Below are positions 2,687 through 31,809 of a stretch of 42,379 bases of DNA, one piece after another (positions within the stretch are counted from its first letter, which is position 1; the number at the start of each line of letters is the position of its first letter). The stretch is from Escherichia phage aldrigsur, in sequence record MN850592.1; one strand, given 5' to 3'. The translations under genes were made by a program, and so were the position numbers. The notes below the pieces were generated by a model. It was not told the origin of the DNA and searched no databases. It saw nothing but the letters and a program-made list of their open reading frames with translations.

Positions 2687-5131
2687 TTAAATTCTCCGAA
2701 CTTTGTTGTAGAACTTGATGTAGTAGCCAAGCCCCTGAATGTTCAGGTCGCCTGCCGTAGACGAATCCACGACCATGCTGCTGGACTCCACCTCAAGACC
2801 CATGCGAACCTTCAAGTGCGCACGCTTGGCCAACATCGCAGACCCCAGACCCAGCTCTTTACTGGTATACCGGATAGGGCTGCTGATGATGTTCAGTGCC
2901 GAGTACGCGCCCCGGTCGCTGGCCGTGATGTTGAACAGGCTCGTGTACCGCAACGTGAAGTTGTAGTGCATGATGACCATCTTGTTCACGTCCATGTACG
3001 AGCCGTCCTGATTGAACACACGCGGAGGCGTAGGGCTGAACAGGGCAGTGAATCGCAGGCCCACATACAGTGAGCTGCTGCCGTACGAAGGCTGGAGGTA
3101 CACGCGTCGGTTAGTGGTGTCGATGGACTTAACCCCGACCTCAGCCCCGATGTAGTTGCCAGACGGCACTACGTTCGTCATGAAATCCCAGTTGCCCTCA
3201 GTCTGGTAGCGGTACTGAATAATGTCCCACAGCGCCCTCTGCTCGCCAGTGGCAGCGAACTGAATGTACGAGCTGTCCGTGGCCGGGTTCGTCACAGTCA
3301 TCAACTGGGCGTAGTCAATGGCCGGGAGGAATCGCGCCGGGTCAGTCGGGTCAGGGGAGTCTCGCATGGACAGCGTGAGCAGGTTCATGTGGCCCTGTTG
3401 CTCAACCAAGAGCACCAGAACCTCACGGACGAACCACGCAGCCTGCACAGTCCCGTACACCTCCCAGCGATGCCACGAGGACAGAACCTTCTCGTCACCA
3501 GACCACAGGTACTCGTTCACGTAGAGCGTGGACTTCTCAGTGGTTGAGCCAAACACGACGATGTTGTTCGTGGTGCTGGCAGAGATATACGAGTTGGCCC
3601 CTTCCAGATAGGTCGGCAGGTGGTCGGTTACATCCTGACTCACGTACTGCAAATCCGTGTAGCCGGACGGCAGCATCTCCTTGATGGAGAATGAGCTGTT
3701 CGAGCGCGGGTACGCGTAATACAGGCTGCGGCCAGAGGTGGTCGGTGCTACGCCAGTGTCCATCTGGTACGTCGAGGTCAACACAGCAGTGGCGTTGTTC
3801 GGCGTAAGGATTTGGTTACGTCCGGGGATAACGGCTTGGTGTTCCTCACTGGCCAGAATCAGGTCAGAGTTGAACGGGATGCCATACCGGAACGATGCCC
3901 CGGCGAAGCTGGTTGCGGTGAACTCAATGCGGTCGTCGTCCAGTACCTGCGTCACAGTCGTACGGAAGAAGTTGGTTCTGTCTTCCTTGTTGCTGGAACC
4001 CATGGTAATGTACGGGCCGGAGAACACAATCAGGCGACCTTGGAACGAAGCCAGACCAGTGATACCCACACCATCAGCATCAGTGAATGCCGGGATTGAG
4101 TTGGTCTTGTCGTCGCCAGCCAGTCGGCCCGGCCATGAGCCTTGAGCGAACGTGTGCTGGTTGGTGGTCGAGGTCGTGCTGAATACCAGAGGCATAGTGC
4201 TTGGGTTAATCCCGGTCGGGGAACCCCACGCACCTTTCTCCACCCAGCGCGAGTTGGCGTAATCCCACTGGAAATACTGAGCGAAGCTGTCGTCGCCCAC
4301 GGTCATGATGAAGCCACCAGCCTGAGTCGGCAGACGCGCCGGGAGCTTGGTGGTCAGGTCGACGCGGTGAGTGTTCGACGCAATCGCATAGCTGGAACCA
4401 GTGTTGGTGGAGACGTTCAGGTCAGTGTACGCGGCAGTGGTCTGGAGGTACATGTACGCACCATCCACCTGCACAACCTCCAGCCCGGTAGCGCCGCCAA
4501 TGGCAGCGTCGAGCTGAGACTTCAACTGACCGATGATATATTCCGGCGTAGCCTTACCCGAAGCGCCTGTCTCGTCGGAGTTAGGTGTGGTGTAAGAGGC
4601 TGACACAGCGCCGCCGCTTGTTTCAACGCGAACGGTGTACTGCTTACCGTAGCCTCCGGCCAGCACAAAGTAGTAACCCCGGCGACCCGGATTCATACGC
4701 GTCTCGTTCTCCAGAAGCACGGGCAGCTTGGAGCAGTTGGCAACGTACATGGTGTTGCCTACGGTAGCGAACACGATGTCGTCGGGGTTGTTCGTGACGA
4801 GGTACGAGGACTGGCCCATGAACTGGACAGTCTCCGTCTCGACGATGGCGGTGACATACCCGGTCTTCGTATTCACGATGAACGTGGTGATGCCCCAGCC
4901 TAAGTTAGTGGTAGTGAATCGCAGGTGGCCGAAGTTACCAAGGCTCCAGACGTTCGCGTTAGTGGAATCCACAGTACGGTGCAGTCGGGTGCCGGGGCGT
5001 TTACGCAGGCCACGCACGGTGTCAGAGGTCATGTTGACCTGTTCCTCAACCTGCGATAGCTGGCGGTCAGTATAGACCTGCTGGCTCACGCCGCCGAGGA
5101 TGGATTTATAAGCGCCTTGGTATACTGGCAT
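2687..5131 (-). CDS. Tail tubular protein B (T7 gp12-like), 814 aa
   Basis: Size and position match T7 gp12 (~794 aa); start overlaps upstream stop (TAATG) with GGAGAGGA Shine-Dalgarno. Confidence 0.8.
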   Translation of the reverse strand: MPVYQGAYKSILGGVSQQVYTDRQLSQVEEQVNMTSDTVRGLRKRPGTRLHRTVDSTNANVWSLGNFGHLRFTTTNLGWGITTFIVNTKTGYVTAIVETETVQFMGQSSYLVTNNPDDIVFATVGNTMYVANCSKLPVLLENETRMNPGRRGYYFVLAGGYGKQYTVRVETSGGAVSASYTTPNSDETGASGKATPEYIIGQLKSQLDAAIGGATGLEVVQVDGAYMYLQTTAAYTDLNVSTNTGSSYAIASNTHRVDLTTKLPARLPTQAGGFIMTVGDDSFAQYFQWDYANSRWVEKGAWGSPTGINPSTMPLVFSTTSTTNQHTFAQGSWPGRLAGDDKTNSIPAFTDADGVGITGLASFQGRLIVFSGPYITMGSSNKEDRTNFFRTTVTQVLDDDRIEFTATSFAGASFRYGIPFNSDLILASEEHQAVIPGRNQILTPNNATAVLTSTYQMDTGVAPTTSGRSLYYAYPRSNSSFSIKEMLPSGYTDLQYVSQDVTDHLPTYLEGANSYISASTTNNIVVFGSTTEKSTLYVNEYLWSGDEKVLSSWHRWEVYGTVQAAWFVREVLVLLVEQQGHMNLLTLSMRDSPDPTDPARFLPAIDYAQLMTVTNPATDSSYIQFAATGEQRALWDIIQYRYQTEGNWDFMTNVVPSGNYIGAEVGVKSIDTTNRRVYLQPSYGSSSLYVGLRFTALFSPTPPRVFNQDGSYMDVNKMVIMHYNFTLRYTSLFNITASDRGAYSALNIISSPIRYTSKELGLGSAMLAKRAHLKVRMGLEVESSSMVVDSSTAGDLNIQGLGYYIKFYNKVRRI

Positions 5132-5679
5132 TATCCTCTCCGAGCACTCTCATAGCGCCACCAGCTCTTGCGCTGGCGAGCATTGAATCGACGCTGGCGG
5201 GTATGGATAGACTGGCACTGTTGCAGGGCCATGGCATAACCACCAGTAACACTGGCCGGGGGATTGTCACCCATGTCATCCGAGTACGCGGAGATAGCTG
5301 CTTGATATGCAACGAGTCGTTGTACCGGACTGGGTAGGTCATCCCAGCCTAAATCGTAAGTCACCAATCCCGGAACATCTTCTGTAAAAACAAAGGTTTG
5401 GGAATTAGCGTTGTAAAGATACCCGCCACGCACGATACACTCAAACCCATCAGGGATGAAGCTCAATGCGTCGGCGGGGTATTTGACACGACCATCCGTT
5501 TCGCGGGGGATGGTGATTCGAATATTGTTGAACCACCAACCATCAGTGAGAACTTCTTCCTGTGCGATACCAATCTTGTCAAGTGCAAGGGTAACGGACG
5601 GGTTTCGAATCTCGGTGGATGATACAGTGTGTTCAGACAATGCTCGAAGAACAATGTTGACTGCTTCGAGTAGAGTCAT
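5131..5679 (-). CDS. Tail tubular protein A (T7 gp11-like), 182 aa
   Basis: Size/position immediately downstream of capsid gene; GGAGG SD upstream of ATG. Confidence 0.75.
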   Translation of the reverse strand: MTLLEAVNIVLRALSEHTVSSTEIRNPSVTLALDKIGIAQEEVLTDGWWFNNIRITIPRETDGRVKYPADALSFIPDGFECIVRGGYLYNANSQTFVFTEDVPGLVTYDLGWDDLPSPVQRLVAYQAAISAYSDDMGDNPPASVTGGYAMALQQCQSIHTRQRRFNARQRKSWWRYESARRG

Positions 5680-5702
5680 AAAACCTCCCAGTGATAATCA
5701 TA

Positions 5703-5725
5703 GAAGCCCCTCAGAGAAGGGCTTC
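5703..5725 (-). terminator. Stem-loop 10 nt downstream of the major capsid gene stop (7-bp GC-rich stem, 9-nt loop); candidate terminator or RNA-stabilising hairpin
   Basis: Inverted repeat GAAGCCC / GGGCTTC seen directly; same relative position as T7 T-phi after gene 10; no clean U tract. Confidence 0.3.
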
Positions 5726-5735
5726 GAGTTTACCA

Positions 5736-6728
5736 TTAGGACTCAGTGGTAACTACAGCAACCACGTCTGGACGACGCTGACCCACGGTGTACATGTGGA
5801 AGCTATCCAGAACGTTGGTCAGTTCACGTTCGTCATCCCATACGCGGTTGAACAGCGGCTGGGCTTCGACAGTGACCAGAGCCAGAGACGGGTCGAAGAT
5901 AATCATCTTGCGCTGAATCTCGTCGGCGGTGACGTTGAAGTCAGGGCCGAGGATGTGGTCGGTGATTGCCGCCTGCGGGAACGCGTTGCTCTCGATGATA
6001 CGGATACCGTTGACGTACGCAACACGACGCATTGCGAAGTCGTTGACACCACGACCACCAGTGAACTCAACGTTCATCAGTTTCTTGTGCTCCAGCAGAA
6101 TGCTGAACCACGCCGGGTCAATCAGCGTAACCAGTCGGCCAAGGTCGGCATCGCGACGGATGAACGCCTCGATAGCTTTCTTGTGGCCGTGTACCAGCGC
6201 AGACGCATCATCTTCCTCAGATGCCACGGTGCCAGTCAGAGTGACCTGCTCCTTGATACCTGCATTGAACGCGCCAGCCAGAGAAGCCGGAGGCACGAAG
6301 TCGGCAGACTTCTGGAGCTGGATGACGTGCGCTTGGTCGAACGCCTTCGCCTGTGCAGTACCCATGTTACGGGTCAGCTCAGCGCGGAAGTCCGGCGCAG
6401 TCCAGTCGTCCTGATAGTCAATCGGGATACGGATGTAAGACACGGTATCCACAGTGACAATCAGTTTCTCAGAGCGAACTGGCTGGTTGTCCAGCGCCTC
6501 GCCAGAGCGACGACCCTTAACGGTCACAGAGCCGAGACGGTCGCCACGCCAAGTGTTGGACTGGTTAGCCACAGACTTGAAGTTGGTCAGACCGGAACGG
6601 AAGATGGAGTTGTAGATGAACTGGGTTTGAACATCACGGTCATACACCTCAAGGTGAATGTCGTTATCAGAGTTCGCGCCACCCCAGTGTGGACGGAACT
6701 GATTCGGGGTATAAGCGTTATCAGCCAT
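5736..6728 (-). CDS. Major capsid protein, 330 aa
   Basis: Size and position between scaffold and tail tubular genes; long intact ORF. Confidence 0.85.
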   Translation of the reverse strand: MADNAYTPNQFRPHWGGANSDNDIHLEVYDRDVQTQFIYNSIFRSGLTNFKSVANQSNTWRGDRLGSVTVKGRRSGEALDNQPVRSEKLIVTVDTVSYIRIPIDYQDDWTAPDFRAELTRNMGTAQAKAFDQAHVIQLQKSADFVPPASLAGAFNAGIKEQVTLTGTVASEEDDASALVHGHKKAIEAFIRRDADLGRLVTLIDPAWFSILLEHKKLMNVEFTGGRGVNDFAMRRVAYVNGIRIIESNAFPQAAITDHILGPDFNVTADEIQRKMIIFDPSLALVTVEAQPLFNRVWDDERELTNVLDSFHMYTVGQRRPDVVAVVTTES

Positions 6729-6748
6729 GGAAAATCCTTACGAAGAAA

Positions 6749-7978
6749 TTAGTAACCTTGAGCTTTAGCCTGACGGCGCTGCTCTACCAGTGCGGCGTAA
6801 TGCTTGTTGTATTCCGGGGAACCAACAGGATGCGCCTGCTCAAGCCAGCCAAGATGCTGACGGAATGCCTCGTTGGTCATAACCTCACGAGGTGCTTGAC
6901 CGCCACCATTAGGCGTCAAAGTTTGACCAGAACGCTGAATCAAATTCCCTGCGGAACCAGCGAACTGGAGAATGGTGTTCACTGCCAGACGCACCTGATT
7001 AGGGTCGCCGGAGTTCACAGCCGCTACAACGGCATCGACCGTGCCTTTGTCGGCGGCGGTGTTGAATGCCTGTACAGCCAGACCCCATCGCTCCTCGCCA
7101 CCAGCCATCTGGTAAACCTGCTGCTCGATTGCAGCGTCACGCTGCTGACCAGCCGCAACCAGTGCGCCGAATTGACCTTTGAGGATTGATACTGTCTGTG
7201 GGTCGAACTGAGCCAGATAGCGGTCGTTCACCAGAGACGGGTCACGACGCTCGTAAGCAGAACCGAACGCTGCAAGCAGGTCGATGTTCTGGCCACGGGC
7301 AATGGTGTCCATGCCTTGGAATACGGCGCGACTGGTATCGTCCGGGAAAATCTGAGCAACCTGCTCGGAGGTCAAGCCACCTTCCTGAGTAGCCAGTTTC
7401 TCAGCCGTGAGGTTGGGATTCTGGAACTGCTGCGGAGGCTGGCCCGGCTGCTGCTGCAACTGTTGGAATGGCTGCTGCTGCTGTTGAGGCTGCTGTGCCT
7501 GCGGCTGTGCGCCCGGCTGACGACCATACGGGTCGAAAGCATAGGGCTGCGGAGCTACTGGCTGTTGGAACTGTTGTGCCGGAGCCGCTTGGCCCGGAGG
7601 CGTTGCGCCCGGATTCTGATACCCATTAACCGGAATTGGTGGTGCCGCAAACGGAGAGGTCTGCTGCGGAGCACCATACGGGTTCTGCTGAGGTACGGGT
7701 GCGTAAGGACTTGGGTTTCCCTGTTGGGGCTGTGCATACGGATTCTGCTCCTGATAAGGAATCAGGCCCGGCTGCTGTCCGAACGGCTGCGCAGGCTGCG
7801 GGGTAGCGCCACCACGAGGTAACTCGATTGGCGTACCGAGACGGCCTAACGCTGGGTTCTGTACCACCTGTGGGCTTCCACCATAATCATTACCGCTGTG
7901 ACCAGAGGGAGTATAGGTCGGGCCAGCGGGTACGTTTTGGGGAGCGGGTGCGGCAGTAGGTTGGGATTCACCAAACAT
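6749..7978 (-). CDS. Scaffolding protein with ~190-aa Pro/Gln-rich low-complexity N-terminal region, 409 aa
   Basis: Position between portal and capsid genes (synteny); N-terminal half dominated by P, Q, G, Y, A. Confidence 0.6.
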   Translation of the reverse strand: MFGESQPTAAPAPQNVPAGPTYTPSGHSGNDYGGSPQVVQNPALGRLGTPIELPRGGATPQPAQPFGQQPGLIPYQEQNPYAQPQQGNPSPYAPVPQQNPYGAPQQTSPFAAPPIPVNGYQNPGATPPGQAAPAQQFQQPVAPQPYAFDPYGRQPGAQPQAQQPQQQQQPFQQLQQQPGQPPQQFQNPNLTAEKLATQEGGLTSEQVAQIFPDDTSRAVFQGMDTIARGQNIDLLAAFGSAYERRDPSLVNDRYLAQFDPQTVSILKGQFGALVAAGQQRDAAIEQQVYQMAGGEERWGLAVQAFNTAADKGTVDAVVAAVNSGDPNQVRLAVNTILQFAGSAGNLIQRSGQTLTPNGGGQAPREVMTNEAFRQHLGWLEQAHPVGSPEYNKHYAALVEQRRQAKAQGY

Positions 7979-7988
7979 GTATTCTCCA

Positions 7989-9554
7989 TTAAATCTGTGC
8001 GATGTTAGGCGCTACATCGACCGCGCCCGGCTGAACGCCTGCGGCAGCCTGAGCTGCATTGTCGATGGCCTGCCCTTCTTGGGCCAAGTCTTGTGCCGAC
8101 TTACGATAGTCGTCAAGCGCAACACCGTTGGATGCGAAGATAACCTCAAGGACTTTCTGTGGGTCGATGGTGTTAGCAACGCCATTAATATTTTGGACAG
8201 CAACCATTGCTGCCTGCGAGTCAGAGAGCGCACGAATCAGCGTCTCTGCTTCAATGCTGCGACCGAGGGCATCCAGACCAGCTTCAACTTGAAGCGACAG
8301 GATATTGCCTACGATGTCAGGTACGGTGGACTCGTCAATCTCCGCGAGCAGGACGTACGCCAGAGGAATCTGGAGGGTCTTAGCCTGCATTGAGTACGGG
8401 CCACCCAGCCCACGTTCGGCGCTGGTTGCTACCTGCTGCACTTCGGTGGCGGTGGTACGTTCGGAGTCACGGAACTCGCCAGTGTACATGAAGGCTTGCG
8501 CCAGTCGCTGCACAATCTGGTTGATTTCGTCACGGGCCTGTTGAACTTTCTGGTAATCCCCGACCTCCAAGCCGGACAGCGATGTGCCGTTCTGGAGTGG
8601 AATGACCTGACCAGTCTCTGCGCTCTCAATGTCATCGACGTTGCCGCCAGAACCAGTGAGCATCCACAGCACGCGCAACGCTTCCTGCATGTACAGAGCC
8701 GAATGCTCAGACAGCATGGACAGACGTGCGAAATCCCCAGCGTGGTCTTCGACAATCCCGCGACCGTAATGCTCGCCAGACTTCAAAGACCACACTGGGA
8801 ATAACCATGGGCAGACTTTTTCAGGGTAGTAATCCTTACCGGGGGTATAGACGCAACCTTGGTAGTTACCAATCTGCTGCGTGATTTCGTAGCCGTACGT
8901 GCCGCTGTCCTTCTGGACGCGGAGCACACGAGTGTACAGCCATACGCGTTTGTTCCCACCACAGCGGAAGCCTTTGGAGTTCAGCTCATTCTGAAAGTCC
9001 TTGGGCAGAGAATCCCACTGGATGCGCTCCTTCACGATAGCATCCACCACAACGCCACGACCGTCGCGCTGCACCACGAAGGATTCCAATCCGTACACTC
9101 GGTACGAACCAGTTTCCATATCGCGGTACAGCGCGGCGTTTCCGGTCACGGCTTGTTGGGCAATTGCTTGGAGCAGGTCAGCGTAGCCTCCATTCTCTTT
9201 GGCTTTGTCTACGATGGCCTTTTCAATAGTGATAAGCGCCTGATTAACTTGCGACATAGACTGCCGCTGTTGGTCAGACACCTTGTTTAATTTCAGCTTC
9301 ACGAATCGAGCGGAAGCCGGGAACAGGAACTCACCCAGTTTGGCAACTAGGTTGTTGACGAGCAGGGCGCCGACAGACTGGTAATCACGAGTAATCTGCT
9401 GGCGGTTCATGTCGTCCACGTCACTGCGGTCATACTCGCTCACCAGCTTGGCCAGTGTATAGCGGCTGTATTCCCGCGCTTTGGTGACAACGTTGCTATC
9501 CCGGTACTTCTGCCACAGAGACTCATAGCTGACGTTCTGCGCGTCTTGAGTCAT
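7989..9554 (-). CDS. Portal (head-tail connector) protein, 521 aa
   Basis: Size comparable to T7 gp8 (~536 aa); first large gene of the structural module. Confidence 0.85.
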   Translation of the reverse strand: MTQDAQNVSYESLWQKYRDSNVVTKAREYSRYTLAKLVSEYDRSDVDDMNRQQITRDYQSVGALLVNNLVAKLGEFLFPASARFVKLKLNKVSDQQRQSMSQVNQALITIEKAIVDKAKENGGYADLLQAIAQQAVTGNAALYRDMETGSYRVYGLESFVVQRDGRGVVVDAIVKERIQWDSLPKDFQNELNSKGFRCGGNKRVWLYTRVLRVQKDSGTYGYEITQQIGNYQGCVYTPGKDYYPEKVCPWLFPVWSLKSGEHYGRGIVEDHAGDFARLSMLSEHSALYMQEALRVLWMLTGSGGNVDDIESAETGQVIPLQNGTSLSGLEVGDYQKVQQARDEINQIVQRLAQAFMYTGEFRDSERTTATEVQQVATSAERGLGGPYSMQAKTLQIPLAYVLLAEIDESTVPDIVGNILSLQVEAGLDALGRSIEAETLIRALSDSQAAMVAVQNINGVANTIDPQKVLEVIFASNGVALDDYRKSAQDLAQEGQAIDNAAQAAAGVQPGAVDVAPNIAQI

Positions 9555-9556
9555 GC

Positions 9557-9817
9557 TTAGCTCCCAATGCCGAGGTTACTTGCCACACCAGTTCCGGTGC
9601 GACGGCGGCGACCACCCAGCGTATCAGAGGCCGAGCTTACTTGGCCACCTGCCTGAATGGTTGGGGTGTTCTCACCAGCGAGGTCGGCTGCAAGGTTAGC
9701 CTGCATCGTTTCTGCCTTCACCTGCGCCGGGTCAGTCTTGATAGTGTACTGAGGCTTTTGGCTACCCAGCCCGAAGACCGAGCCAATGCCCTTGAATACT
9801 TTGCCTACGCTACCCAT
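9557..9817 (-). CDS. Hypothetical Gly-rich small protein (possible virion protein), 86 aa
   Basis: ORF tightly packed upstream of portal. Confidence 0.45.
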   Translation of the reverse strand: MGSVGKVFKGIGSVFGLGSQKPQYTIKTDPAQVKAETMQANLAADLAGENTPTIQAGGQVSSASDTLGGRRRRTGTGVASNLGIGS

Positions 9818-10236
9818 TACGGTTTCTCCAAATCAATGAAGCGGTACTCCTGAACGTAAGGCCGCACCATATGGGAGTAACCGCACCAACGCACACCCTC
9901 TGAACGGGCCACGTCTTTGAGTACACGGAGGATGGCACGCATCACTCCACGGTTTCTGTACGGGGGCCAGACGTATGAGGCCATAACGACCACCATCTCG
10001 CCCACATGAATATCGAATAACCTGCCGATGTGTGCAACGGCCATGAGGCTGTCGTCATCGTCAGTGATGTAAACGTCAACACAACCGGAGGCGGTGGCCT
10101 CGTACATGCTGTCAACAATCACATCGGGAGATAAGTCTGACCATGGCCGCTCGGCTTGAATGCCTTCGGCCACAGCACGGCGAATGTCGAGTGGCATTGT
10201 CGTGTGTGATGTATTTCCCATAGTAGACACTTTCAT
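9817..10236 (-). CDS. Hypothetical protein, possibly GNAT-like acetyltransferase, 139 aa
   Basis: ATG at 10236 with GGGAGAG SD; weak R-x-x-G motif (YRNRGVMRAIL); function uncertain. Confidence 0.45.
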   Translation of the reverse strand: MKVSTMGNTSHTTMPLDIRRAVAEGIQAERPWSDLSPDVIVDSMYEATASGCVDVYITDDDDSLMAVAHIGRLFDIHVGEMVVVMASYVWPPYRNRGVMRAILRVLKDVARSEGVRWCGYSHMVRPYVQEYRFIDLEKP

Positions 10237-10250
10237 ACCGACAACTCTCC

Positions 10251-10442
10251 CTACAACCCAATGACACGTTCACGGATGAAGTCGATAACATCTTGTTTAC
10301 CAGCTTCTCTGTTAATCAGTGGCAGGTTGGTATCAGGGGTTACAGTCTTACCTACTGCCGCCCAAGTTCCGAAGTGTTTTTCCAGTAGAGCTAACTGAGC
10401 TTTAGTGAACGATACTCTTTCTAATGGAGATTCTTTACCCAT
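10251..10442 (-). CDS. Hypothetical protein, 63 aa
   Basis: ATG preceded by GAGAGG SD; first gene after the RNAP-downstream regulatory region. Confidence 0.45.
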   Translation of the reverse strand: MGKESPLERVSFTKAQLALLEKHFGTWAAVGKTVTPDTNLPLINREAGKQDVIDFIRERVIGL

Positions 10443-10490
10443 TACAATCCTCTCTTAGTGGCAGTAACCCCCGCCACTGACGGGGCTACC

Positions 10491-10526
10491 GGTAGCGTGA
10501 TACATATCACTATAGACACTTTCATA
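10491..10526 (-). promoter_or_regulatory. Composite conserved element (19-bp box TATGAAAGTGTCTATAGTG followed by palindrome TGATAcaTATCA) in the RNAP-downstream intergenic region; candidate phage promoter/operator
   Basis: Near-identical composite found in inverted orientation at 31190..31226; 19-bp box also at 24533..24551 and 10219..10237. Confidence 0.35.
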
Positions 10527-10553
10527 TAAGTCAATGATACATATCACTATTTA

Positions 10554-12986
10554 TCAGCAGAAAAACTTGCTTGATTGTTTCACAAGCTGGATGTCCAGAT
10601 TGCCACGTTCAGGTGGAACAGCATTGTATCTTACCGCAAGTTGTTGAATTGGGTCATGTTGCTCATACATCTGTACGAACTTTTCACGAATGACCTTATG
10701 CAGCAGACCAGCATGTGCCGCCGCAACACCGAACGAGTCATGGATGGATACCATGTACACCCCGTTATTCCACATCTCCCACAGCACCTTCATCATGTGG
10801 CTGGCATCCATGGCGTGTACGAAATTCGGAGCAATCGCAGCCGCACACTTCCGGCTATCCGGCTTGTCCAGATACTCGCGCAGCTTAATGCTGTGGATAC
10901 CCATGAGGTTGATGTTGTTGAGCATCGTCTCCTTGCTGGCTTGGTACAGGTTAACCACCCGCAACCCTGACGGCGCAATGATTTCTACGTACTCCCCGTT
11001 GGCTGCCGCCTCAACCGCGATAGCCTGCAACCATGCCATCAGCTCAGCCGCCTTCGGCACAACACGAGGGATTGCATTCCACATGAACTCTGCGATGAAC
11101 TGCGCACACTCCAGCAGGCTCTTGCCGTCCGGCAGCTTGACCCTGTTCTCACGCAGGTACAGGCAGTAGTAGTCAACCATACCGTGCCGGGTTGCCCCGT
11201 ACACGTAGGTCATCACTGGCTTCTTGGCCATAGCCCGAACGATGCCGATGCTAACAAGCCACGTACCCATCTGCGTCGGCGCTGTCGTCTCACTTTCTTC
11301 AAGAGCCTGCATTGCCGCTGCTGCCGTCTTGAGGTAAATGTCTGCCTTACGTCCGATGCTATTGATAAGATTGACAGCAGCACCGCCAACTTCATCTCGT
11401 AGCATGGCCGACAGGTGTTGTAGTCCTGAACATGTAGCGTCCCATTGTGTAACCACTCGGCAGGGATAAGTCTCAGGACTTCCTGAGTCGATAGCTCGAA
11501 TGAGTTCAACAGATGCAGCCCACGCGCTGACAGGGCTATCGGCCTCTGACCAGAACGAATCAAATGCCTCTGGAAGACGGCACGCCTCACGTAGTCGGGG
11601 GAGTGTTTTGTCCGTCCACGCTGCCCGGTCTTCGAAGTCTGTTGCGTCGTAGCCGAAGCAATTCGCAACATGTACCTTGAGCCAGAACAGCCCCTCACTT
11701 CCGAGAGCCACTGGTTCAGCAAGTTCGAGCAGCGCTCGCACTGCGTCGATGGACTGAGGGTTAAGGGTCGAAGAATAATAAATTCGGCCCCGTGTATCAG
11801 CGTAGGTCGGGAGGTATACCCTGTCATAATGCGCATAGCGCTCTGCCTCTTTGACTGCACCATTCAGCGCCAGCATCTGCGACGTGAACTTACGCAACTC
11901 ATTGTAATACAAGCGAGTCTTAACCTTGTACTCATGAGCCTCGGCATCCATCTGCTGCTGCATCTCTGGTGGGAACTTGCTGATGTACTGCGCGAAGCTG
12001 ACACCAGCCGGGATGGTGAATGGGAGCTTAGGCTCACGAGGCGGCACAGGCAGCCCCATAACGCCTGTACGGTTCGTTCTCAGGAACTCCAGTACCATTG
12101 GGTTAATTCGGTACGGAACGCTGCTGAGCATCATACACGGCTCTATAACAGGGGTCGGGTCAACGTTCAATGCACGATACCCTTTGTGGTTCATGCGACT
12201 CATTACCCGGTACATCGCCGCCTGCCCATCCGAGTGCCACATACCGCTGCGACCGTTCGGTGCAATCTGCTTCGGCGGGATAATCAACGGTGGGCAGCAC
12301 ATGCCATCAGCACGCGGCATGTCCAGCCAGTCGTTCATCGTAGCCAGCACATCCTCATGCAGTGCGAAGTGTGCCGTACCGCGCTGACGTTGGTTGCCGC
12401 CGACGCGAATCGTAGCCACCAACCCAGTTGGCTCCACGCACTTCATCATCAGCTTACCAATGGTAATCAGAGCACGCTGTGGCAGCACGTCAATCTCTAC
12501 CCCAACGTTCGCCGCCGACGCACGAGCTTTGTTGTAGACGTGGTTGGCCGACTTCGACCGGGACTTCTTAACGTCCTGCTTCACGCGCTCCATGTACGCT
12601 GCCTGCTGTGGCCCGGTCTGCTTCGCCCGGAGATACACCACCTCAGCCATCAGCGCTTTACCCATACTCTTGAGCAGACTCAGTACCGCCTGCTCCGACG
12701 CAGCACCGGACACCGCCATGCTCAATGCAAGAGAAGCACACGCCTTGGTGCCAATCTCACGCATGTACGTCCGGTACTGCGCACCGTACCCACGGGTCGT
12801 TTCGTTCAGGGTTTCTTGCATCGCAGCTTCGACAAGAGGATACGCCTCTACCATCATACGCTGGAGCAACGGCACCGACCCGGCCCGGCCACTGGCCATG
12901 GCTTCTTTGATATTGTCCAGCCAGCCCTCGCGGTGTCTGGCTCGTGCTTCTTCTTCAAGTCGAATCTGCTCAGCAAGTAAGTCCAC
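10554..12986 (-). CDS. Single-subunit DNA-dependent RNA polymerase (T7 gp1-like), 810 aa
   Basis: Recognisable T7 RNAP motifs: CSGLQHLSAMLRDEVGG (T7 CSGIQHFSAMLRDEVGG), FVHAMDASH, SIHDSFG. Confidence 0.95.
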   Translation of the reverse strand: MDLLAEQIRLEEEARARHREGWLDNIKEAMASGRAGSVPLLQRMMVEAYPLVEAAMQETLNETTRGYGAQYRTYMREIGTKACASLALSMAVSGAASEQAVLSLLKSMGKALMAEVVYLRAKQTGPQQAAYMERVKQDVKKSRSKSANHVYNKARASAANVGVEIDVLPQRALITIGKLMMKCVEPTGLVATIRVGGNQRQRGTAHFALHEDVLATMNDWLDMPRADGMCCPPLIIPPKQIAPNGRSGMWHSDGQAAMYRVMSRMNHKGYRALNVDPTPVIEPCMMLSSVPYRINPMVLEFLRTNRTGVMGLPVPPREPKLPFTIPAGVSFAQYISKFPPEMQQQMDAEAHEYKVKTRLYYNELRKFTSQMLALNGAVKEAERYAHYDRVYLPTYADTRGRIYYSSTLNPQSIDAVRALLELAEPVALGSEGLFWLKVHVANCFGYDATDFEDRAAWTDKTLPRLREACRLPEAFDSFWSEADSPVSAWAASVELIRAIDSGSPETYPCRVVTQWDATCSGLQHLSAMLRDEVGGAAVNLINSIGRKADIYLKTAAAAMQALEESETTAPTQMGTWLVSIGIVRAMAKKPVMTYVYGATRHGMVDYYCLYLRENRVKLPDGKSLLECAQFIAEFMWNAIPRVVPKAAELMAWLQAIAVEAAANGEYVEIIAPSGLRVVNLYQASKETMLNNINLMGIHSIKLREYLDKPDSRKCAAAIAPNFVHAMDASHMMKVLWEMWNNGVYMVSIHDSFGVAAAHAGLLHKVIREKFVQMYEQHDPIQQLAVRYNAVPPERGNLDIQLVKQSSKFFC

Positions 12987-12988
12987 AA

Positions 12989-13294
12989 CTACTCCTTAAT
13001 TTGTCCAGCCAACCGCTCAACCTCAGCCGCATCGTCTTGAAATTCTTCGACAATACCAACGCCGTAGGTAGGTTTATCGTAACCGGGTTGCGCCTGATTA
13101 CGCTGCCCTAAGTCTGCCAGCACCTCGTGTTGGAGCGTGCTGTTATTCGTACCCGTACCGCCGCAGGCTTCGCAGTCCATCAGGACTACCTGCCCACCAA
13201 TTAACATGCCCCGGTAGGTGCCACTCCCATGGCACGCACCGCACACATTCTTGTCTACCGCTGTGTCATCGACAGCTCTCTGATAACGACTCAT
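12989..13294 (-). CDS. Small DnaJ-type zinc-finger protein (two CxxCxGxG motifs), ~101 aa
   Basis: CGACHGSG and CEACGGTG motifs; preferred ATG at 13294 with AGGGGA SD (ORF track gives 12989..13354). Confidence 0.55.
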   Translation of the reverse strand: MSRYQRAVDDTAVDKNVCGACHGSGTYRGMLIGGQVVLMDCEACGGTGTNNSTLQHEVLADLGQRNQAQPGYDKPTYGVGIVEEFQDDAAEVERLAGQIKE

Positions 13295-13302
13295 ACAATC
13301 CC

Positions 13303-13482
13303 CTACGCCAGATAGCAGATGAACCAAGTTGGCAGTACAGCCAACAGTACCCACACAACGAAACCAGCAGAGCCAGCCCGTGTCGGGTAGTGCGTCAAGT
13401 TGTAAGACTTACACGCGCTGAGGGTGGCCAGTGTAAAGTACACGAACCAGAACAAAGCAATCACATAAAGTAAAGCACTCAT
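13303..13482 (-). CDS. Small membrane protein (two predicted TM helices), ~59 aa
   Basis: Hydrophobic segments; ATG at 13482 with AAGGAAAA SD, ATGA overlap with upstream stop (ORF track 13303..13527). Confidence 0.45.
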   Translation of the reverse strand: MSALLYVIALFWFVYFTLATLSACKSYNLTHYPTRAGSAGFVVWVLLAVLPTWFICYLA

Positions 13483-14063
13483 TTCGTTTTCCTTAAAGCA
13501 AGTTCCAGAATGAACAGCGCATTGCAAGCAGCGTGCGCCAGATGGTGCAGATTGGATTCCGGGTCAGTCTCCTCACCCTTACCCACTGCGGTCAGGTGAC
13601 GAAGCAGCGCTGACTTGTAACGTTCCTCACCTTCCGGCACGGTCTGCCACGAGTGAGCCGCGTACTTCTGAGCGCCGAAGGTTAGCACGCTGGCTACAGC
13701 TTCCAGCGCATTCGGGCAGCCGTCGAACAGCAGAGCCATGCGAGGCTTGTCGCCGTCGAACTTCATACCGCCCGGCCCACCAACACCCTGACCAATGGCC
13801 ACGGCCACCTCAACATCAGAGGCCGGGTCATATGGGTCGTTCTCAATGAACGCAGTCTGGACTGGCTGTACCTCATAAGGCTCCAGTACCAGATGTTCCG
13901 TCCTGCCGTCCCAAACGCAGGTGTAATAATCCCTGCTGTCGTTAGGTACATCATAGGGTTCATCGTACGTCAGGATGATACCGTTGTCCCGCATAGCGTT
14001 GAGCCGTGGGCTTTGGTAGTCTCGGTTAATATCCAGACAGAACTTGTCACCACGTTTACTCAT
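13479..14063 (-). CDS. Hypothetical protein, possibly nucleotide pyrophosphohydrolase (MazG/dNTP diphosphohydrolase-like), ~194 aa
   Basis: Alpha-helical C-terminal half with K..R...Y/W pattern reminiscent of phage dNTP pyrophosphohydrolases (weak, from memory); start at 14063 with GGAG SD (ORF track 13479..14105). Confidence 0.4.
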   Translation of the reverse strand: MSKRGDKFCLDINRDYQSPRLNAMRDNGIILTYDEPYDVPNDSRDYYTCVWDGRTEHLVLEPYEVQPVQTAFIENDPYDPASDVEVAVAIGQGVGGPGGMKFDGDKPRMALLFDGCPNALEAVASVLTFGAQKYAAHSWQTVPEGEERYKSALLRHLTAVGKGEETDPESNLHHLAHAACNALFILELALRKTK

Positions 14064-14559
14064 CTTTGTCTCCATCGTATTTGGCATTGGCGTGGACGTA
14101 TTCATGGTTGTCCTCGTACCGGGTCACTTCATACACTGTGATGCCGAGGCTTCGCATGAAGTCCACGATGTGCGGCAGGTCATCGAAAGCACACACGATG
14201 TTCTCGATACCAATATCCTCCAGAGCGGATAGCTTCATCTCTGTGTCCTTACGGCAGTCACCAATCTCTCTCATGATTAGCTTGTCGTAAACAACGCCAG
14301 CTTCGTCGAGCCACTGCTCTGTTACTTCACGGGCCACGGCCCCGCGTCCAGTCAGGATGACAATGCGATACGTGAGGGCCAGAGCGTTCACAATGTCAAT
14401 CGTATCCTGAAACGCAGGGTCGTCAGCGCCAGCCAAGTTGAACTCGGCCCACGCTTCGTCAAGGTGCCGACGCTCCGGTGGAGGCAGCAGGTGCAAACGC
14501 CAGCGGCCATCGGCCAGCGTACCATCAAGGTCTACTACTACGGTGTCTTTCATGTGCAT
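14056..14559 (-). CDS. HAD-superfamily phosphatase (polynucleotide 3'-phosphatase/nucleotidase-like), ~167 aa
   Basis: HAD motif I VVVDLDGTLADG near N-terminus, later ILTGR and FDD motifs; ATG at 14559 with GAGGAAG SD (ORF track 14056..14724). Confidence 0.65.
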   Translation of the reverse strand: MHMKDTVVVDLDGTLADGRWRLHLLPPPERRHLDEAWAEFNLAGADDPAFQDTIDIVNALALTYRIVILTGRGAVAREVTEQWLDEAGVVYDKLIMREIGDCRKDTEMKLSALEDIGIENIVCAFDDLPHIVDFMRSLGITVYEVTRYEDNHEYVHANAKYDGDKDE

Positions 14560-14749
14560 CGTGTGCTTCCTCAAGAGCAAAGATAATGTCTCGGACGTAC
14601 GCCCAAGGCAACCAGACTTCCTCACCGTCCTGAGAAATGCAGACGGTGCCATCTTTGTACAGCTCAACCTGAGTGTTGGCCTCCCACTCAATCGAGAGGC
14701 CATCTTCTTTAAGCTGTACCACATCTTCTTGGTACAGGGTTCGTGTCAC
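14525..14749 (-). CDS. Hypothetical acidic protein, 74 aa
   Basis: ORF with ATGA overlap to upstream gene stop; overlaps HAD start by ~35 nt. Confidence 0.4.
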   Translation of the reverse strand: MTRTLYQEDVVQLKEDGLSIEWEANTQVELYKDGTVCISQDGEEVWLPWAYVRDIIFALEEAHDAHERHRSSRP

Positions 14750-15873
14750 TCTAACATCTCCGGGCTAATCGTGAATCGTGCAACCTCACCGTACCGGGTA
14801 TGGTACGTAATCACGCTCGCGCTGCGCTCGCTCAGCCAACCACCACGAGAAGCATAGGCATCCTTCGCCGCCAGCGTACGGTGCTGCTCGACAACCATGA
14901 CACCGGACTCCAGTACCTTCTTGTGATGCAGGTGGCCAACGTGTGCATAAGCATGTTTGGTTCGGCCATACACTTCGCGGAACTTGGCGACCAGTACAGT
15001 CTCCAGTTGTTCTGCCTTGCGCTTGTGACCATGGTGGAAGAACAGTGCCGTCTCGCCATGCTCATAGCAGTAGTACGGGTCAGGGCTGCGGTCAACAGTA
15101 ACACGCGGCTCGTCGGCGTACAGTACATGCAGCAGCTCACGCATCCAGATAGAGCTGGCCATGTCGTGGTTGCCCTCGGCACACACTACGTGAACCTGCG
15201 GGAACTTCTCCAGCAGCATACCAATGATGCGGCGCTGCGCCCGGATAGCTACACGCACCAGCTTCTGGAATCGCGTGTCGGCATCCAGCACATGACCACT
15301 CGACGGCGTTACTGCATCCAACCCATCCCAGTGCAGGAAGTCACCGAGCTGTCCGAAGATAGCAACCTGAGCTGGCGGCGCACTGTCGATGGCGGCGGCG
15401 AACCACTTGACCAGCAGGTCTTCCGCAATCTTCATATCCCAGTCGTCGCCAGTCTCCTCAGCCCACGCCAGCATACCGAGGTGGTAGTCAGTCAGGACGA
15501 ACAGGTTAAGCAAATCGGCTGGCGCTGTGCGACCTGCATACAAGCGCGGCGGCTCCGGCACGATGCTCTCACTGATTGCATCAACTGCTGCCTGTAGCAT
15601 AGCCAGCTCTTGCTCACGGTCGAGCGCAGTCTTCACCCACTGCATGACAACGTTGCCGTCCTTATCGTACAGCGTGGACGTACCCTTGACTGCATACGGC
15701 TCCGGTACTTCCTTCGTCATGTCGTGCTCAGGACTCCAGCCGCTCTTGGCAAGCTGGCGCTTCCGGTATCGGATGGCACTCTCGGTCATGTCGTGCTTAT
15801 CCGCAATGGCTTTGGTGCCAAGCCCTTCGGCAATGTCTTCTTTGAGTTGGTGATTCGTTAACTTGGTCATCAT
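14746..15873 (-). CDS. Calcineurin-like metallophosphoesterase with N-terminal helix-turn-helix domain, 375 aa
   Basis: Phosphoesterase motifs GDFLH, GNHD, GHLHH; N-terminal HTH-like GLGTKAIADKHDMTESAIRYRKRQL. Confidence 0.7.
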   Translation of the reverse strand: MMTKLTNHQLKEDIAEGLGTKAIADKHDMTESAIRYRKRQLAKSGWSPEHDMTKEVPEPYAVKGTSTLYDKDGNVVMQWVKTALDREQELAMLQAAVDAISESIVPEPPRLYAGRTAPADLLNLFVLTDYHLGMLAWAEETGDDWDMKIAEDLLVKWFAAAIDSAPPAQVAIFGQLGDFLHWDGLDAVTPSSGHVLDADTRFQKLVRVAIRAQRRIIGMLLEKFPQVHVVCAEGNHDMASSIWMRELLHVLYADEPRVTVDRSPDPYYCYEHGETALFFHHGHKRKAEQLETVLVAKFREVYGRTKHAYAHVGHLHHKKVLESGVMVVEQHRTLAAKDAYASRGGWLSERSASVITYHTRYGEVARFTISPEMLE

Positions 15874-16250
15874 TTCCCCTTAGTCAATAAGGCTCGCGCT
15901 TTCGCGGCTGCTGCCTTCTTACGTCTGTCGGCTACTGCCGCCTTCTTCTCTGCCTCGGTCTTGTGCGTTGGGTACATCAGACCAGTGTGTTGCTTACGTC
16001 GCCACTCGATAGCGCTGTCCAGCCAATCATCCACAGTGCGCTGGCGCTTCGCTCGGTTGGCAGAGTTCTCTACCTTGCCGAGCTGAGCATTGCACCAGCG
16101 ACAGATGACCCCGCGAATCTCCCCACTCACATGGTCGTGGTCAACAACCATGAGCTTGAGGTCTACCATCGGCTCGTTACAGAGTGGGCAAGGACAGCCC
16201 ATCGCATTCTTCCGCATCTGCAACAAGGTCGCGCCAGTCACTTTCCGCAT
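15870..16250 (-). CDS. Endonuclease VII-like Holliday-junction resolvase, ~126 aa
   Basis: CPLC...DHDH...GEIRGVICRWCN matches T4 endo VII pattern (CxxC...HLDHDH...RGLLCNLCN); start uncertain (GTG 16262 / ATG 16250 / ATG 16202). Confidence 0.75.
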   Translation of the reverse strand: MRKVTGATLLQMRKNAMGCPCPLCNEPMVDLKLMVVDHDHVSGEIRGVICRWCNAQLGKVENSANRAKRQRTVDDWLDSAIEWRRKQHTGLMYPTHKTEAEKKAAVADRRKKAAAAKARALLTKGK

Positions 16251-17151: not shown

Positions 17152-17188
17152 TGGTTTCCCCCGTGGCACATCCCTGTGCCTGCGTCAG

Positions 17189-24551: not shown

Positions 24552-24576
24552 ATGCCTGCTAAATAATAACAGGCAT
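24552..24576 (-). terminator. Stem-loop (7-bp stem ATGCCTG/CAGGCAT, 11-nt AT-rich loop) in intergenic gap
   Basis: Inverted repeat seen directly; lies between stop at 24587 and next start at 24513. Confidence 0.3.
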
Positions 24577-31189: not shown

Positions 31190-31226
31190 TATGAAAGTGT
31201 CTATAGTGATATAGTATCGCTAGATA
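31190..31226 (+). promoter_or_regulatory. Inverted copy of the composite element (TATGAAAGTGTCTATAGTG + TGATAtagTATC palindrome) at the boundary of the AT-rich and T-depleted regions
   Basis: Same composite as minus-strand 10491..10526, here on plus strand. Confidence 0.35.
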
Positions 31227-31620: not shown

Positions 31621-31809
31621 CAATCCTCTTGACGCGCCGCGCAACGCACGCGAGACAATATCGCGCACGTCGCGAGGCTAATCCGCGCACACGTCATGGG
31701 GGTACGCGCGGTCATTTGGGTCGAGGGAGGGGCAACCATAAACATGCAATTTTCAAGCCGGGGGTATTGCTCCACACGGCCTGTTCAATGCTCCAGCTTT
31801 CGATAGCCC

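What the first reader, a model, noticed from the sequence alone, without database searches (positions are those of the whole stretch)
10443..10553. RNAP-downstream intergenic region is packed with signals: two palindromes, conserved box and GC hairpin
Within 111 nt after the RNAP stop codon there are two direct copies of the imperfect palindrome TGATAcaTATCA(CTAT) (plus 10498-10513 and 10535-10550, 37 bp apart, the second overlapping the last RNAP codons), the 19-bp conserved box (10508-10526) and a CCCCG/CGGGG hairpin (10469-10485). This is the position where T7 has promoters 1.1A/1.1B and its primary replication origin. The palindromes look like dimeric-protein operator sites that could feed back on RNAP expression.
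Basis: partly seen in the sequence, partly recalled or inferred. Interest (0 to 1): 0.5.

Follow-up and report, generated by a model that had tools for sequence, protein, structure and literature searches.

The report
Late phage promoter and mRNA leader
The stretch after the phage RNA polymerase gene is the phage's own late promoter followed by a strongly conserved mRNA leader, an arrangement already mapped in related phages, and the two palindromes are the start of the late transcript plus a lineage-specific upstream copy of it, not repressor binding sites.

Summary
Two exact 16-mers, the conserved box, a 12-nt palindrome and a GC inverted repeat lie in the 111-nt gap between the RNA polymerase (RNAP) gene and the next gene. 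All genes are on the minus strand.

The window is a circularly permuted Bonnellvirus genome with phiKMV/LIMEzero-like gene order. The box TATGAAAGTGTCTATAG (10526-10510) is most likely the promoter for the phage's single-subunit RNAP:
- It occurs five times at positions syntenic with LIMEzero.
- Its layout matches the promoters mapped experimentally in LUZ19.
- All copies change together within each relative.
- Those changes track substitutions in the RNAP segment that aligns to the T7 specificity loop.

Palindrome copy B is then the first ~14 nt of the late transcript. Relatives keep dyad symmetry there but change its sequence and spacing, which fits a hairpin rather than an operator. Copy A exists only in one subclade, where it is invariant. 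It pairs with copy B into a 16-20 bp stem only in read-through RNA. Its role is inferred, possibly processing or insulation.

The 30-nt GC-rich leader is almost invariant and unexplained. No regulator gene co-occurs with copy A, and no terminator or sigma-70 promoter was found. Verdict: an ordinary late promoter and leader, a new member of a known kind.

Side observation: an E. coli chromosomal island carries this promoter type and a capsid homolog.

The parts
10551..10556 (-). Tandem stop codons TGA TAA ending the RNAP gene (ORF 12986..10554)
10535..10550 (-). Palindrome copy A, ATAGTGATATGTATCA, in the 3' untranslated region of the RNAP gene. It duplicates positions -3 to +13 of the late promoter and is present in only one Bonnellvirus subclade.
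   Evidence: Exact repeat. Invariant together with the spacer (0 of 27 variable sites) in 9 genomes whose synonymous sites vary at 46%. Absent from the other relatives.
10527..10534 (-). Spacer TTGACTTA between copy A and the promoter box. A TTG(A)C-like motif is kept upstream of the late promoter in all Bonnellvirus relatives.
   Evidence: No sigma-70-type promoter was called here.
10510..10526 (-). Late promoter for the phage single-subunit RNAP, TATGAAAGTGTCTATAG. The predicted start is A10511 or G10510.
   Evidence: Five syntenic copies per genome. They co-vary with the RNAP specificity-loop segment. The LIMEzero record annotates a promoter at the same position. The validated CD23823 promoter has the same AATG-N7-CTATA layout.
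10497..10510 (-). Palindrome GTGATATGTATCAC, the core of copy B (copy B spans 10513-10498). It is the first ~14 nt of the late transcript and is predicted to form a 5-bp 5'-terminal hairpin.
   Evidence: Dyad symmetry is kept in relatives with changed sequence and spacing.
10485..10496 (-). Perfect 12-nt palindrome GCTACCGGTAGC in the leader, unique in the genome
   Evidence: Invariant in 12 genomes.
10469..10485 (-).
   Evidence: Invariant in 12 genomes. No U-tract follows, and no terminator was called.
10457..10478 (-). Alternative 8-bp hairpin AGUGGCGG/CUGCCACU, which overlaps the CCCCG/CGGGG repeat and ends 1 nt before the Shine-Dalgarno (SD) sequence. The folding programs prefer it.
   Evidence: All substitutions among relatives fall in its loop or flanks. 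There is no covariation.
10440..10456 (-). SD sequence AAGAGAGG (10456-10449) and the ATG (10442-10440) of the 63-aa gene, the first gene of the late unit
10221..10237 (-). Second late promoter copy, TATGAAAGTGTCTACTA, overlapping the start codon of the 139-aa GNAT (Rac-like) gene
   Evidence: Pfam GNAT match. LIMEzero has the same arrangement at ORF36.

Best explanation
The 111-nt gap holds the main late promoter of a phiKMV/LIMEzero-like phage and the 5' leader of its late operon.

1. The phage's own single-subunit RNAP recognises TATGAAAGTGTCTATAG (10526-10510).
2. It starts transcription at about A10511 or G10510.
3. It transcribes the 63-aa gene, the Rac-like acetyltransferase gene and the structural genes.

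Palindrome copy B is therefore not an operator but the first ~14 nt of that RNA. There it can form a small 5'-terminal hairpin. By analogy with 5' stem-loops on E. coli and T7 late mRNAs, this probably protects the message. That step is inferred.

The following GC-rich 30 nt (palindrome plus two mutually exclusive hairpins next to the SD sequence) is an almost invariant leader element of unknown role. It is probably an RNA-level element affecting stability or translation of the first late gene.

Copy A is a lineage-specific duplicate of the start region, placed just after the RNAP stop codon. It is transcribed only on read-through RNA coming from the RNAP gene, where it pairs with copy B into a 16-20 bp duplex that encloses the promoter sequence. 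Its most likely role is to mark or process read-through RNA, for example by RNase III cleavage or a stable 3' end for the RNAP message. This last step is speculative.

Shown in silico: promoter identity, the layout, and the conservation pattern. Inferred: the exact start site, the hairpin function, and the roles of the leader and of copy A.
For: Promoter identity:
- The box occurs five times in the window. One copy is at 31190-31206 on the plus strand, reversed, in the left-end non-coding region. The other four are on the minus strand at 24551-24535, 10526-10510, 10237-10221 and 39493-39477.
- LIMEzero has five copies of its own box at the same five syntenic positions. Its GenBank record annotates two of them as 'putative phage specific promoter', one starting 1 nt after the RNAP stop codon.
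- Within each relative examined across its whole genome, the copies carry the same variant: GTGTCT, GTGACT or GCTACT at all five sites, and GTAACT, with a few single-base departures, in J8-65 and Lidtsur. This includes nonsynonymous changes in the Rac-like N-terminus.
- These classes match substitutions in the RNAP segment ETMLNNIN..GIHS. HMMER aligns that segment to T7 RNAP 741-754, which contains R746 and N748.
- The validated CD23823 promoter AATGTATACCCCTATATACAC (+1 = A) has the same AATG-N7-CTATA layout (PMC12272871).
- The three intergenic promoters coincide with the three most AT-rich 80-nt windows of the genome.

Leader:
- 1 of 30 sites varies across 12 genomes, against about 60% of synonymous sites in the flanking genes.

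Copy B:
- Dyad symmetry is kept while sequence and spacing change.
- The paralogous reversed promoter also starts with a hairpin.

Copy A:
- 0 of 27 sites vary in the 9 genomes that carry it, against 46% of synonymous sites.
- The read-through RNA folds to -40.9 kcal/mol, z = -2.96, and 0 of 200 shuffles fold as well. The long stem is predicted only in genomes that carry copy A.
Against: - No transcription start has been mapped for any Bonnellvirus, so the start is placed only by analogy, within 1-2 nt.
- The KP34 case shows that a repeated motif predicted in silico can be the wrong promoter (PMC6834552).
- The 5' hairpin is weak: -3.9 kcal/mol, about the top 10% of random 18-mers from the genome. 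It is nearly absent in Lidtsur and LIMEzero as RNA.
- The leader fold is not significantly more stable than shuffles (z = -1.5), and no base pair shows covariation. Sequence-specific recognition, at the DNA or RNA level, therefore remains possible.
- The invariance of copy A could partly reflect recent short-patch recombination rather than selection. ROV85 and RZ4 combine a window-like copy A with a forsur-like box.
- The long stem is absent from close relatives, so it is not essential to the group.
Confidence: 0.8

Rival explanations
1. The two palindromes are operator sites for a dimeric DNA-binding protein, from the phage or the host, that regulates the late promoter or feeds back on RNAP expression.
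For: - Two identical dyad-symmetric 16-mers flank a promoter.
- Both are invariant within a 9-genome subclade.
- By eye, copy B resembles GTGA-N6-TCAC, the core of a CRP-type site. This is a hand comparison and was not tested.
Against: - Half-site spacing and sequence change among relatives while the symmetry persists.
- Copy A is missing in seven relatives that keep the promoter and the genes.
- No ORF co-occurs with copy A.
- There is no further site in the genome.
- The 37-bp spacing puts the two sites on opposite faces of the helix.
- Both sites lie downstream of the RNAP coding sequence.
Confidence: 0.08
2. The region is a replication origin primed by phage RNAP transcription, like the T7 primary origin downstream of gene 1 (phi1.1A/1.1B plus an AT-rich segment).
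For: - Two phage promoters lie within 300 nt downstream of the RNAP gene.
- 10500-10579 is the second most AT-rich 80-nt window of the genome, at 72% A+T.
Against: - The AT-rich part lies upstream of and at the promoter. The transcribed leader is 41% A+T, so the T7 layout (promoter followed by an AT-rich segment) is not reproduced.
- The extremes of cumulative GC skew are at about 8600 and 30870, not here.
- The same layout in LUZ19 is explained simply as late promoters.
Confidence: 0.07
3. Copy A has no function. It is a neutral remnant of recombination or gene conversion among the paralogous promoter start regions (P_late, P_left), and the long stem is a by-product.
For: - The same 12-15 nt, GTGATATGTATC, appears as the start region of the reversed left-end promoter in forsur and usur, which lack copy A.
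- Variants of the centre (TATG, TAGA, TATAG, TAAG) are shuffled among the three sites in different genomes, as gene conversion would predict.
- The stem is absent in close relatives.
Against: - 0 of 27 sites vary in 9 genomes whose flanking synonymous sites vary at 46%. The chance of this is about 6e-8 if the sites were free to vary.
- That includes ROV85 and RZ4, whose RNAP C-terminus is only about 90% identical to the window's.
Confidence: 0.25

Closest known systems
[quoted passage not shown]
   Same: - There are few copies per genome (4-5).
[quoted passage not shown]
- One lies inside the structural region.
- One is in reverse orientation in the early, left-end region.
- The upstream half contains TTATG (LUZ19 motif GgtTATGTCACacACAnnGG).
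   Different: - The specificity part of the motif differs.
- This phage group also has a copy upstream of the DNA-metabolism module.
- No transcription start data exist for Bonnellvirus.
Pantoea phage LIMEzero 'putative phage specific promoter' annotations (NC_015585: 7294-7313 and 20330-20349)
   Same: - The closest outgroup, with 63% identity over the C-terminal 250 aa of the RNAP.
- Promoter copies at the same five syntenic sites, including one overlapping the start codon of the Rac homolog ORF36.
- The late promoter is followed by a dyad-symmetric start region, TGATATAGATATC.
   Different: - The LIMEzero box is TATGAAGGCAAGCACTAAGG.
- Its late promoter begins 1 nt after the stop codon.
- It has no copy A and no GC-rich leader.
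Experimentally validated promoters of Cronobacter phage Dev-CD-23823 RNAP (AATGTATACCCCTATATACAC, +1 = A; PMC12272871) and KP34 RNAP (T(A/G)ATGTTACAGGAGTA; PMC6834552)
   Same: - A/T-ATG at the upstream edge, a specificity segment of about 7 nt, then CTATA next to the start (CD23823).
- The promoter is about 16-21 nt long.
   Different: - The RNAPs are only distantly related.
- The similarity was judged by hand alignment.
- Genome positions in CD23823 were not examined.
T7 gene 1 / gene 1.1 intergenic region: phi1.1A, phi1.1B, RNase III site R1.1 and the primary origin (established knowledge, Dunn and Studier 1983)
   Same: - Phage promoters sit immediately after the RNAP gene.
- There is a potential long irregular RNA duplex in the intercistronic read-through RNA.
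   Different: - The gene order differs: here the RNAP gene precedes the structural genes.
- No AT-rich segment follows the promoter.
- The duplex exists in only one subclade.
- RNase III cleavage is untested.
5'-terminal stem-loops that stabilise E. coli and T7 late mRNAs (ompA leader; T7 phi10 leader; established knowledge)
   Same: The hairpin begins within 0-1 nt of the predicted 5' end.
   Different: The hairpin is short and AT-rich (-3.9 kcal/mol) and is not kept in every relative.

Membership tests
Single-subunit (T7-family) phage RNAP promoter, phiKMV-like class | A conserved 16-20 nt motif repeated a few times in a genome that encodes a single-subunit RNAP | tested here: met
   Five copies in the window and in each fully examined relative. 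The RNAP matches T7 RNAP structures.
Single-subunit (T7-family) phage RNAP promoter, phiKMV-like class | [quoted passage not shown] | tested here: met
   Window copies at 10526, 10237, 39493, 24551 (minus strand) and 31190 (plus strand, reversed). LUZ19 map. LIMEzero.
Single-subunit (T7-family) phage RNAP promoter, phiKMV-like class | Promoter bases co-vary with the RNAP specificity loop | tested here: met
   The GTGTCT, GTGACT, GCTACT and GTAACT classes partition exactly with the RNAP segment aligned to T7 741-754.
Single-subunit (T7-family) phage RNAP promoter, phiKMV-like class | Primary transcripts start at the motif, and the cognate RNAP initiates there in vitro | not testable with these tools
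   No transcriptome or in vitro data for Bonnellvirus were found.
Operator for a dimeric DNA-binding regulator | A dyad-symmetric site whose half-site sequence and spacing are conserved among relatives | tested here: not met
   Spacing and sequence vary, and copy A is absent in seven relatives.
Operator for a dimeric DNA-binding regulator | A cognate regulator gene co-occurs with the site | tested here: not met
   No window ORF has the copy-A presence/absence pattern across 8 genomes. A host factor is not excluded.
Operator for a dimeric DNA-binding regulator | Specific protein binding | not testable with these tools
   Needs EMSA or footprinting.
T7-type primary replication origin | Phage promoter(s) followed by an AT-rich segment where DNA synthesis starts | tested here: not met
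   The sequence downstream of the start is 41% A+T. The AT-rich part is the promoter and its upstream region.
RNase III processing site (T7 R1.1 type) | An irregular RNA duplex of about 20 bp in an intercistronic region | tested here: met
   A 16-bp stem, plus a 4-bp inner stem and outer stems, is predicted in read-through RNA (z = -2.96). It is predicted only in copy-A genomes.
RNase III processing site (T7 R1.1 type) | Cleavage by RNase III | not testable with these tools
   Needs an rnc+ versus rnc- comparison or an in vitro cleavage assay.
Intrinsic (hairpin plus U-tract) terminator | A GC-rich hairpin followed by a U-run | tested here: not met
   No terminator-like site in 10100-10800. 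GUUACUG follows the GC repeat.
Curated RNA families (Rfam) | A match above the gathering score | tested here: not met
   The only hit is to a human lncRNA model at 20.5 bits against a gathering score of 60.

The most novel reading that the evidence does not exclude
In one Bonnellvirus subclade, the first 13 nt of the late transcript were copied into the 3' untranslated region of the RNAP gene. As a result, only RNA that reads through from the RNAP gene forms a 16-20 bp duplex around the late promoter sequence. This would act as a discriminator. Read-through RNA would be processed (for example by RNase III) or structurally insulated, giving the RNAP message a stable 3' end and separating it from the late messages. 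Promoter-initiated RNA would carry only the small 5' hairpin.
Probability: 0.2. Interest if true: 0.4.

Novelty: new member of a known kind. Interest (0 to 1): 0.25.

Why it matters
It supplies a missing annotation. No promoter description for Bonnellvirus was found in the held papers. The five promoter copies, with their variants matched to RNAP specificity-loop variants, form a small natural set of RNAP-promoter pairs of the kind used to engineer orthogonal expression systems.

For the finding itself, the result is mostly clarifying. The 'packed signals' are a late promoter and its leader, not a repressor-controlled switch on the RNAP gene.

Two points remain open and are cheap to test:
- why 30 nt of the leader are invariant;
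- whether copy A creates a processing site.

The promoter motif also led to an E. coli chromosomal island that carries phage-type promoters and a capsid gene. That island may be of more interest than the finding.

Tried and rejected
- **Sigma-70 promoter or intrinsic terminator in 10100-10800:** none found. Whole-window scans gave nothing above the shuffle expectation.
- **Rfam:** only one sub-threshold spurious hit.
- **Small ORF.** An ORF runs from the ATG inside the box (27 codons, ending at TAATG). Indels in relatives break the frame, and all three codon positions are equally invariant. The 88-aa CDS annotated in usur from this ATG is probably an artefact.
- **Long-range pairing of the leader with the 63-aa gene.** Leader 10480-10464 could pair with 10343-10316. 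The coding partner mutates freely without compensation, so this was rejected.
- **Plus-strand T7-like 'CACTATAG' promoter:** it arises only because CTATAG is its own reverse complement. The specificity positions do not match the phage box.
- **Copy A as a decayed promoter:** upstream of copy A only 1 of 10 positions matches the box (hand alignment).
- **Covariation support for the leader structure:** none, because the sequences are too conserved.
- **More distant homologs of the leader:** confined to Bonnellvirus and unique in the genome.
- **CRP-like and IHF-like resemblances:** noticed by eye only. They are not conserved in relatives and were not pursued.
- **The LIMEzero paper (PMC3126476):** could not be read.

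Full report
**What the window is.** All long ORFs are on the minus strand. The region around the finding is 97% identical to Escherichia phage altidsur and 84-93% identical to other Bonnellvirus phages. The window length of 42,379 bp equals that listed for phage aldrigsur in PMC7552041. Gene order is phiKMV/LIMEzero-like. The 810-aa RNAP gene (12986..10554) ends the DNA-metabolism module. It is followed by a 63-aa gene, a 139-aa GNAT acetyltransferase gene, and the structural genes. The GNAT gene sits in the position of Rac in phiKMV-like phages (PMC7552054). The window is a circular permutation: the physical genome ends lie near 31,700, between the endolysin gene and the SAMase gene.

**Check of the observation.** The gap 10443-10553 contains, in the direction of transcription:

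| Element | Sequence | Coordinates |
|---|---|---|
| Stop codons | TGA TAA | 10556-10551 |
| Copy A | ATAGTGATATGTATCA | 10550-10535 |
| Spacer | TTGACTTA | 10534-10527 |
| Box | TATGAAAGTGTCTATAG | 10526-10510 |
| Copy B | ATAGTGATATGTATCA | 10513-10498 |
| Palindrome | GCTACCGGTAGC | 10496-10485 |
| GC inverted repeat | CCCCGTCAGTGGCGGGG | 10485-10469 |
| SD sequence | AAGAGAGG | 10456-10449 |
| Start codon | ATG | 10442-10440 |

The two 16-mers are exact, and there are no other copies in the window. About 0.001 such repeats are expected by chance. Copy A does not overlap the RNAP coding sequence.

**The box is the phage RNAP promoter.**
- *Copy number and position.* It occurs five times:
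  - 24551-24535, upstream of the DNA-metabolism module;
  - 10526-10510, inside the finding;
  - 10237-10221, overlapping the start codon of the GNAT gene;
  - 39493-39477, inside an internal virion protein gene;
  - 31190-31206, on the plus strand (reversed), in the left-end non-coding region.
- *LIMEzero.* This is the nearest outgroup, with 63% RNAP identity. It has five copies of its own box, TATGAAGGCAAGCACTAAGG, at the same five positions. Its record annotates two of them as putative phage-specific promoters, one starting 1 nt after the RNAP stop codon.
- *LUZ19.* ONT-cappable-seq found four phage-specific promoters. [quoted passage not shown] The layout is conserved in 15 Phikmvvirus species (PMC10914365).
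- *Co-variation within genomes.* In each relative examined across its whole genome, the copies carry the same variant. GTGTCT is in the window clade. GTGACT is in ROV85 and forsur, and at both downstream-of-RNAP sites in RZ4. GCTACT is in usur, and at those two sites in Kc261. J8-65 and Lidtsur carry GTAACT with a few single-base departures. This holds even where it changes amino acids of the GNAT N-terminus.
- *Co-variation with the RNAP.* The classes partition with one hypervariable RNAP patch, ETMLNNIN..GIHS. HMMER aligns that patch to T7 RNAP residues 741-754. From established knowledge, that segment belongs to the specificity loop and contains the base-contacting residues R746 and N748.
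- *Validated relatives.* The promoter of the Dev-CD-23823 RNAP, AATGTATACCCCTATATACAC with +1 = A, has the same AATG-N7-CTATA layout (PMC12272871). The KP34 promoter starts with TAATG (PMC6834552).
- *Start site.* By these analogies the start is A10511 or G10510.
- *Caveat.* For KP34 an earlier purely bioinformatic promoter prediction turned out to be wrong. Here the co-variation with the RNAP gives independent support that the KP34 prediction lacked.

**The palindromes.**
- *Copy B* spans -3 to +13 of this promoter, so GUGAUAUGUAUCAC is the 5' end of the late RNA.
- Relatives keep dyad symmetry at this position with different sequence and spacing:
  - megetsur, usur, Kc261: GTGATA-GA-TATCAC;
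  - forsur: GTGAT-AGA-ATCAC, a 1-nt deletion;
  - J8-65 and smaasur: TCTGG-TATAC-CCAGA;
  - Lidtsur: GGTATACC;
  - LIMEzero: GATAT-AG-ATATC.
- The reversed left-end promoter starts with a related hairpin.
- This pattern fits selection for hairpin potential and argues against a fixed-geometry dimeric operator.
- The RNA hairpin is weak, however: -3.9 kcal/mol, about the top 10% of random 18-mers. It is very weak in Lidtsur and LIMEzero. Its function as a stabilising 5' stem-loop is therefore an inference.
- *Copy A* is found only in the window, altidsur, an IMG/VR contig, LF82-23, megetsur, mellemsur, HHU8, ROV85 and RZ4. Other relatives have unrelated sequence of similar length there.
- In those nine genomes the 27 nt from the stop codon to the box are invariant, while flanking synonymous sites vary at 46%.
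- In read-through RNA, copy A pairs with copy B in a 16-bp stem extended by inner and outer stems. The fold is -40.9 kcal/mol with z = -2.96, and none of 200 shuffles folds as well. The long stem is predicted only in copy-A genomes.
- The same 12-15 nt is the start region of the left-end promoter in forsur and usur, which lack copy A. The three paralogous start regions therefore appear to exchange sequence.
- No window ORF co-occurs with copy A across eight genomes, and no other site resembling the palindrome exists in the window.

**The leader.**
- From +15 to +44 (10496-10467) only 1 of 30 columns varies among 12 genomes, against about 60% of synonymous sites in the flanking genes.
- The element is unique in the genome and confined to this clade. 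J8-65, smaasur, Lidtsur and LIMEzero lack it.
The two hairpins are mutually exclusive.
- The fold is not significantly more stable than shuffles (z = -1.5). No pair shows covariation, because nothing varies.
- It is not a terminator and not a known RNA family.
- Its function is unexplained. Such invariance suggests sequence-specific recognition rather than mere stability.

**Comparison with T7.** T7 has phi1.1A/1.1B, RNase III site R1.1 and the primary origin after gene 1 (established knowledge). Here there are also two phage promoters after the RNAP gene and, in one subclade, a candidate duplex. The AT-rich DNA, however, is the promoter region itself (72% A+T), and the leader downstream is 41% A+T. 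The GC-skew extremes lie elsewhere. An origin function is neither supported nor excluded.

**Side observations.**
- Searching the region against E. coli genomes found 49 chromosomes with a near-exact match to the box plus start region.
- In E2348/69 the match lies in a roughly 15-kb island bounded by an integrase gene and tRNA-Leu.
- The island shares 210 nt at 86% identity with the phage's reversed left-end promoter region. It also shares 44 nt at 93% with sequence near the phage genome end.
- The island encodes a protein 55.5% identical to the phage major capsid protein (PHROG major head protein).
- It carries two divergent phage-type promoters. One points into its helicase-to-capsid gene cluster.
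- This looks like a satellite or defective element wired to a Bonnellvirus-type RNAP. A limited literature search found no description of it.

**Verdict.** The operator interpretation is not supported. The region is a late phage promoter with its leader, a known kind of element newly recognised in this genus. Two features remain unexplained: the invariant leader and the subclade-specific copy A.

Noticed in passing
window 31190-31206 (+ strand): An exact copy of the promoter box lies in reverse orientation in the left-end non-coding region. It points away from all genes and towards the genome end. It is conserved in altidsur, megetsur, ROV85, forsur, usur, J8-65, Lidtsur and LIMEzero, and it parallels the antisense promoter P001 mapped in LUZ19. 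The most AT-rich 80 nt of the genome (31062-31141) lies just upstream.
   Followed up: partly
window 10221-10237 (- strand): A second late promoter copy overlaps the start codon of the GNAT (Rac-like) gene. The first codons (MKVS, MKVT, MKAT) change together with the promoter class of each genome. Transcripts from this promoter would lack the Rac start codon, so the 63-aa gene and the Rac-like gene could be expressed separately from the structural genes.
   Followed up: partly
window 39477-39493 (- strand): A fifth promoter copy, AATGAGGGTGTCTACTA, lies inside the 1036-aa internal virion protein gene. It is syntenic with copies in LIMEzero ORF45, Lidtsur, megetsur, ROV85, forsur and usur, and it follows each genome's box class.
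   Followed up: partly
window 24554-24574 (- strand): A hairpin, GCCTG-N11-CAGGC, directly abuts the promoter upstream of the DNA-metabolism module. ROV85, forsur and usur have GCCAG/CTGGC, a compensatory double change. J8-65 and Lidtsur have different hairpins at the same place. LIMEzero annotates a terminator there.
   Followed up: partly
L035 (E. coli E2348/69 NC_011601.1 4837758-4865786), island at about 3548-18529; promoter-like sites at 14002 (+) and 13778 (-): A chromosomal island of about 15 kb lies between an integrase gene and tRNA-Leu and is present in 49 E. coli genomes. It shares 210 nt (86% identity) with the phage's reversed left-end promoter region and 44 nt (93%) with sequence near the phage genome end. 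It encodes a major capsid protein homolog (55.5% identity), an endonuclease VII-like protein, an HNH endonuclease and a helicase. It carries two divergent phage-type promoters, one pointing into its gene cluster. It may be a satellite activated by the helper phage's RNAP.
   Followed up: partly
window 10467-10496 (- strand): The 30 nt of leader, CGCTACCGGTAGCCCCGTCAGTGGCGGGGG, vary at 1 of 30 sites in 12 genomes whose synonymous sites vary at about 60%. The element is entirely absent from J8-65, smaasur, Lidtsur and LIMEzero. No explanation was found.
   Followed up: partly
L011 971-1237 (usur_19): The usur record annotates an 88-aa CDS that starts at the ATG inside the promoter box and runs into the 63-aa gene. 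The frame is not conserved in relatives, so this is probably an annotation artefact.
   Followed up: yes
L018 (IMGVR_UViG_2228664000_000004) about 2250-2450: A relative with 81% RNAP identity has a different box, ATGAAAACTACTATCA, 6 nt after the RNAP stop codon. It is followed by GC-rich repetitive sequence resembling the left-end region rather than the 63-aa gene, which suggests a rearranged or differently organised genome.
   Followed up: no
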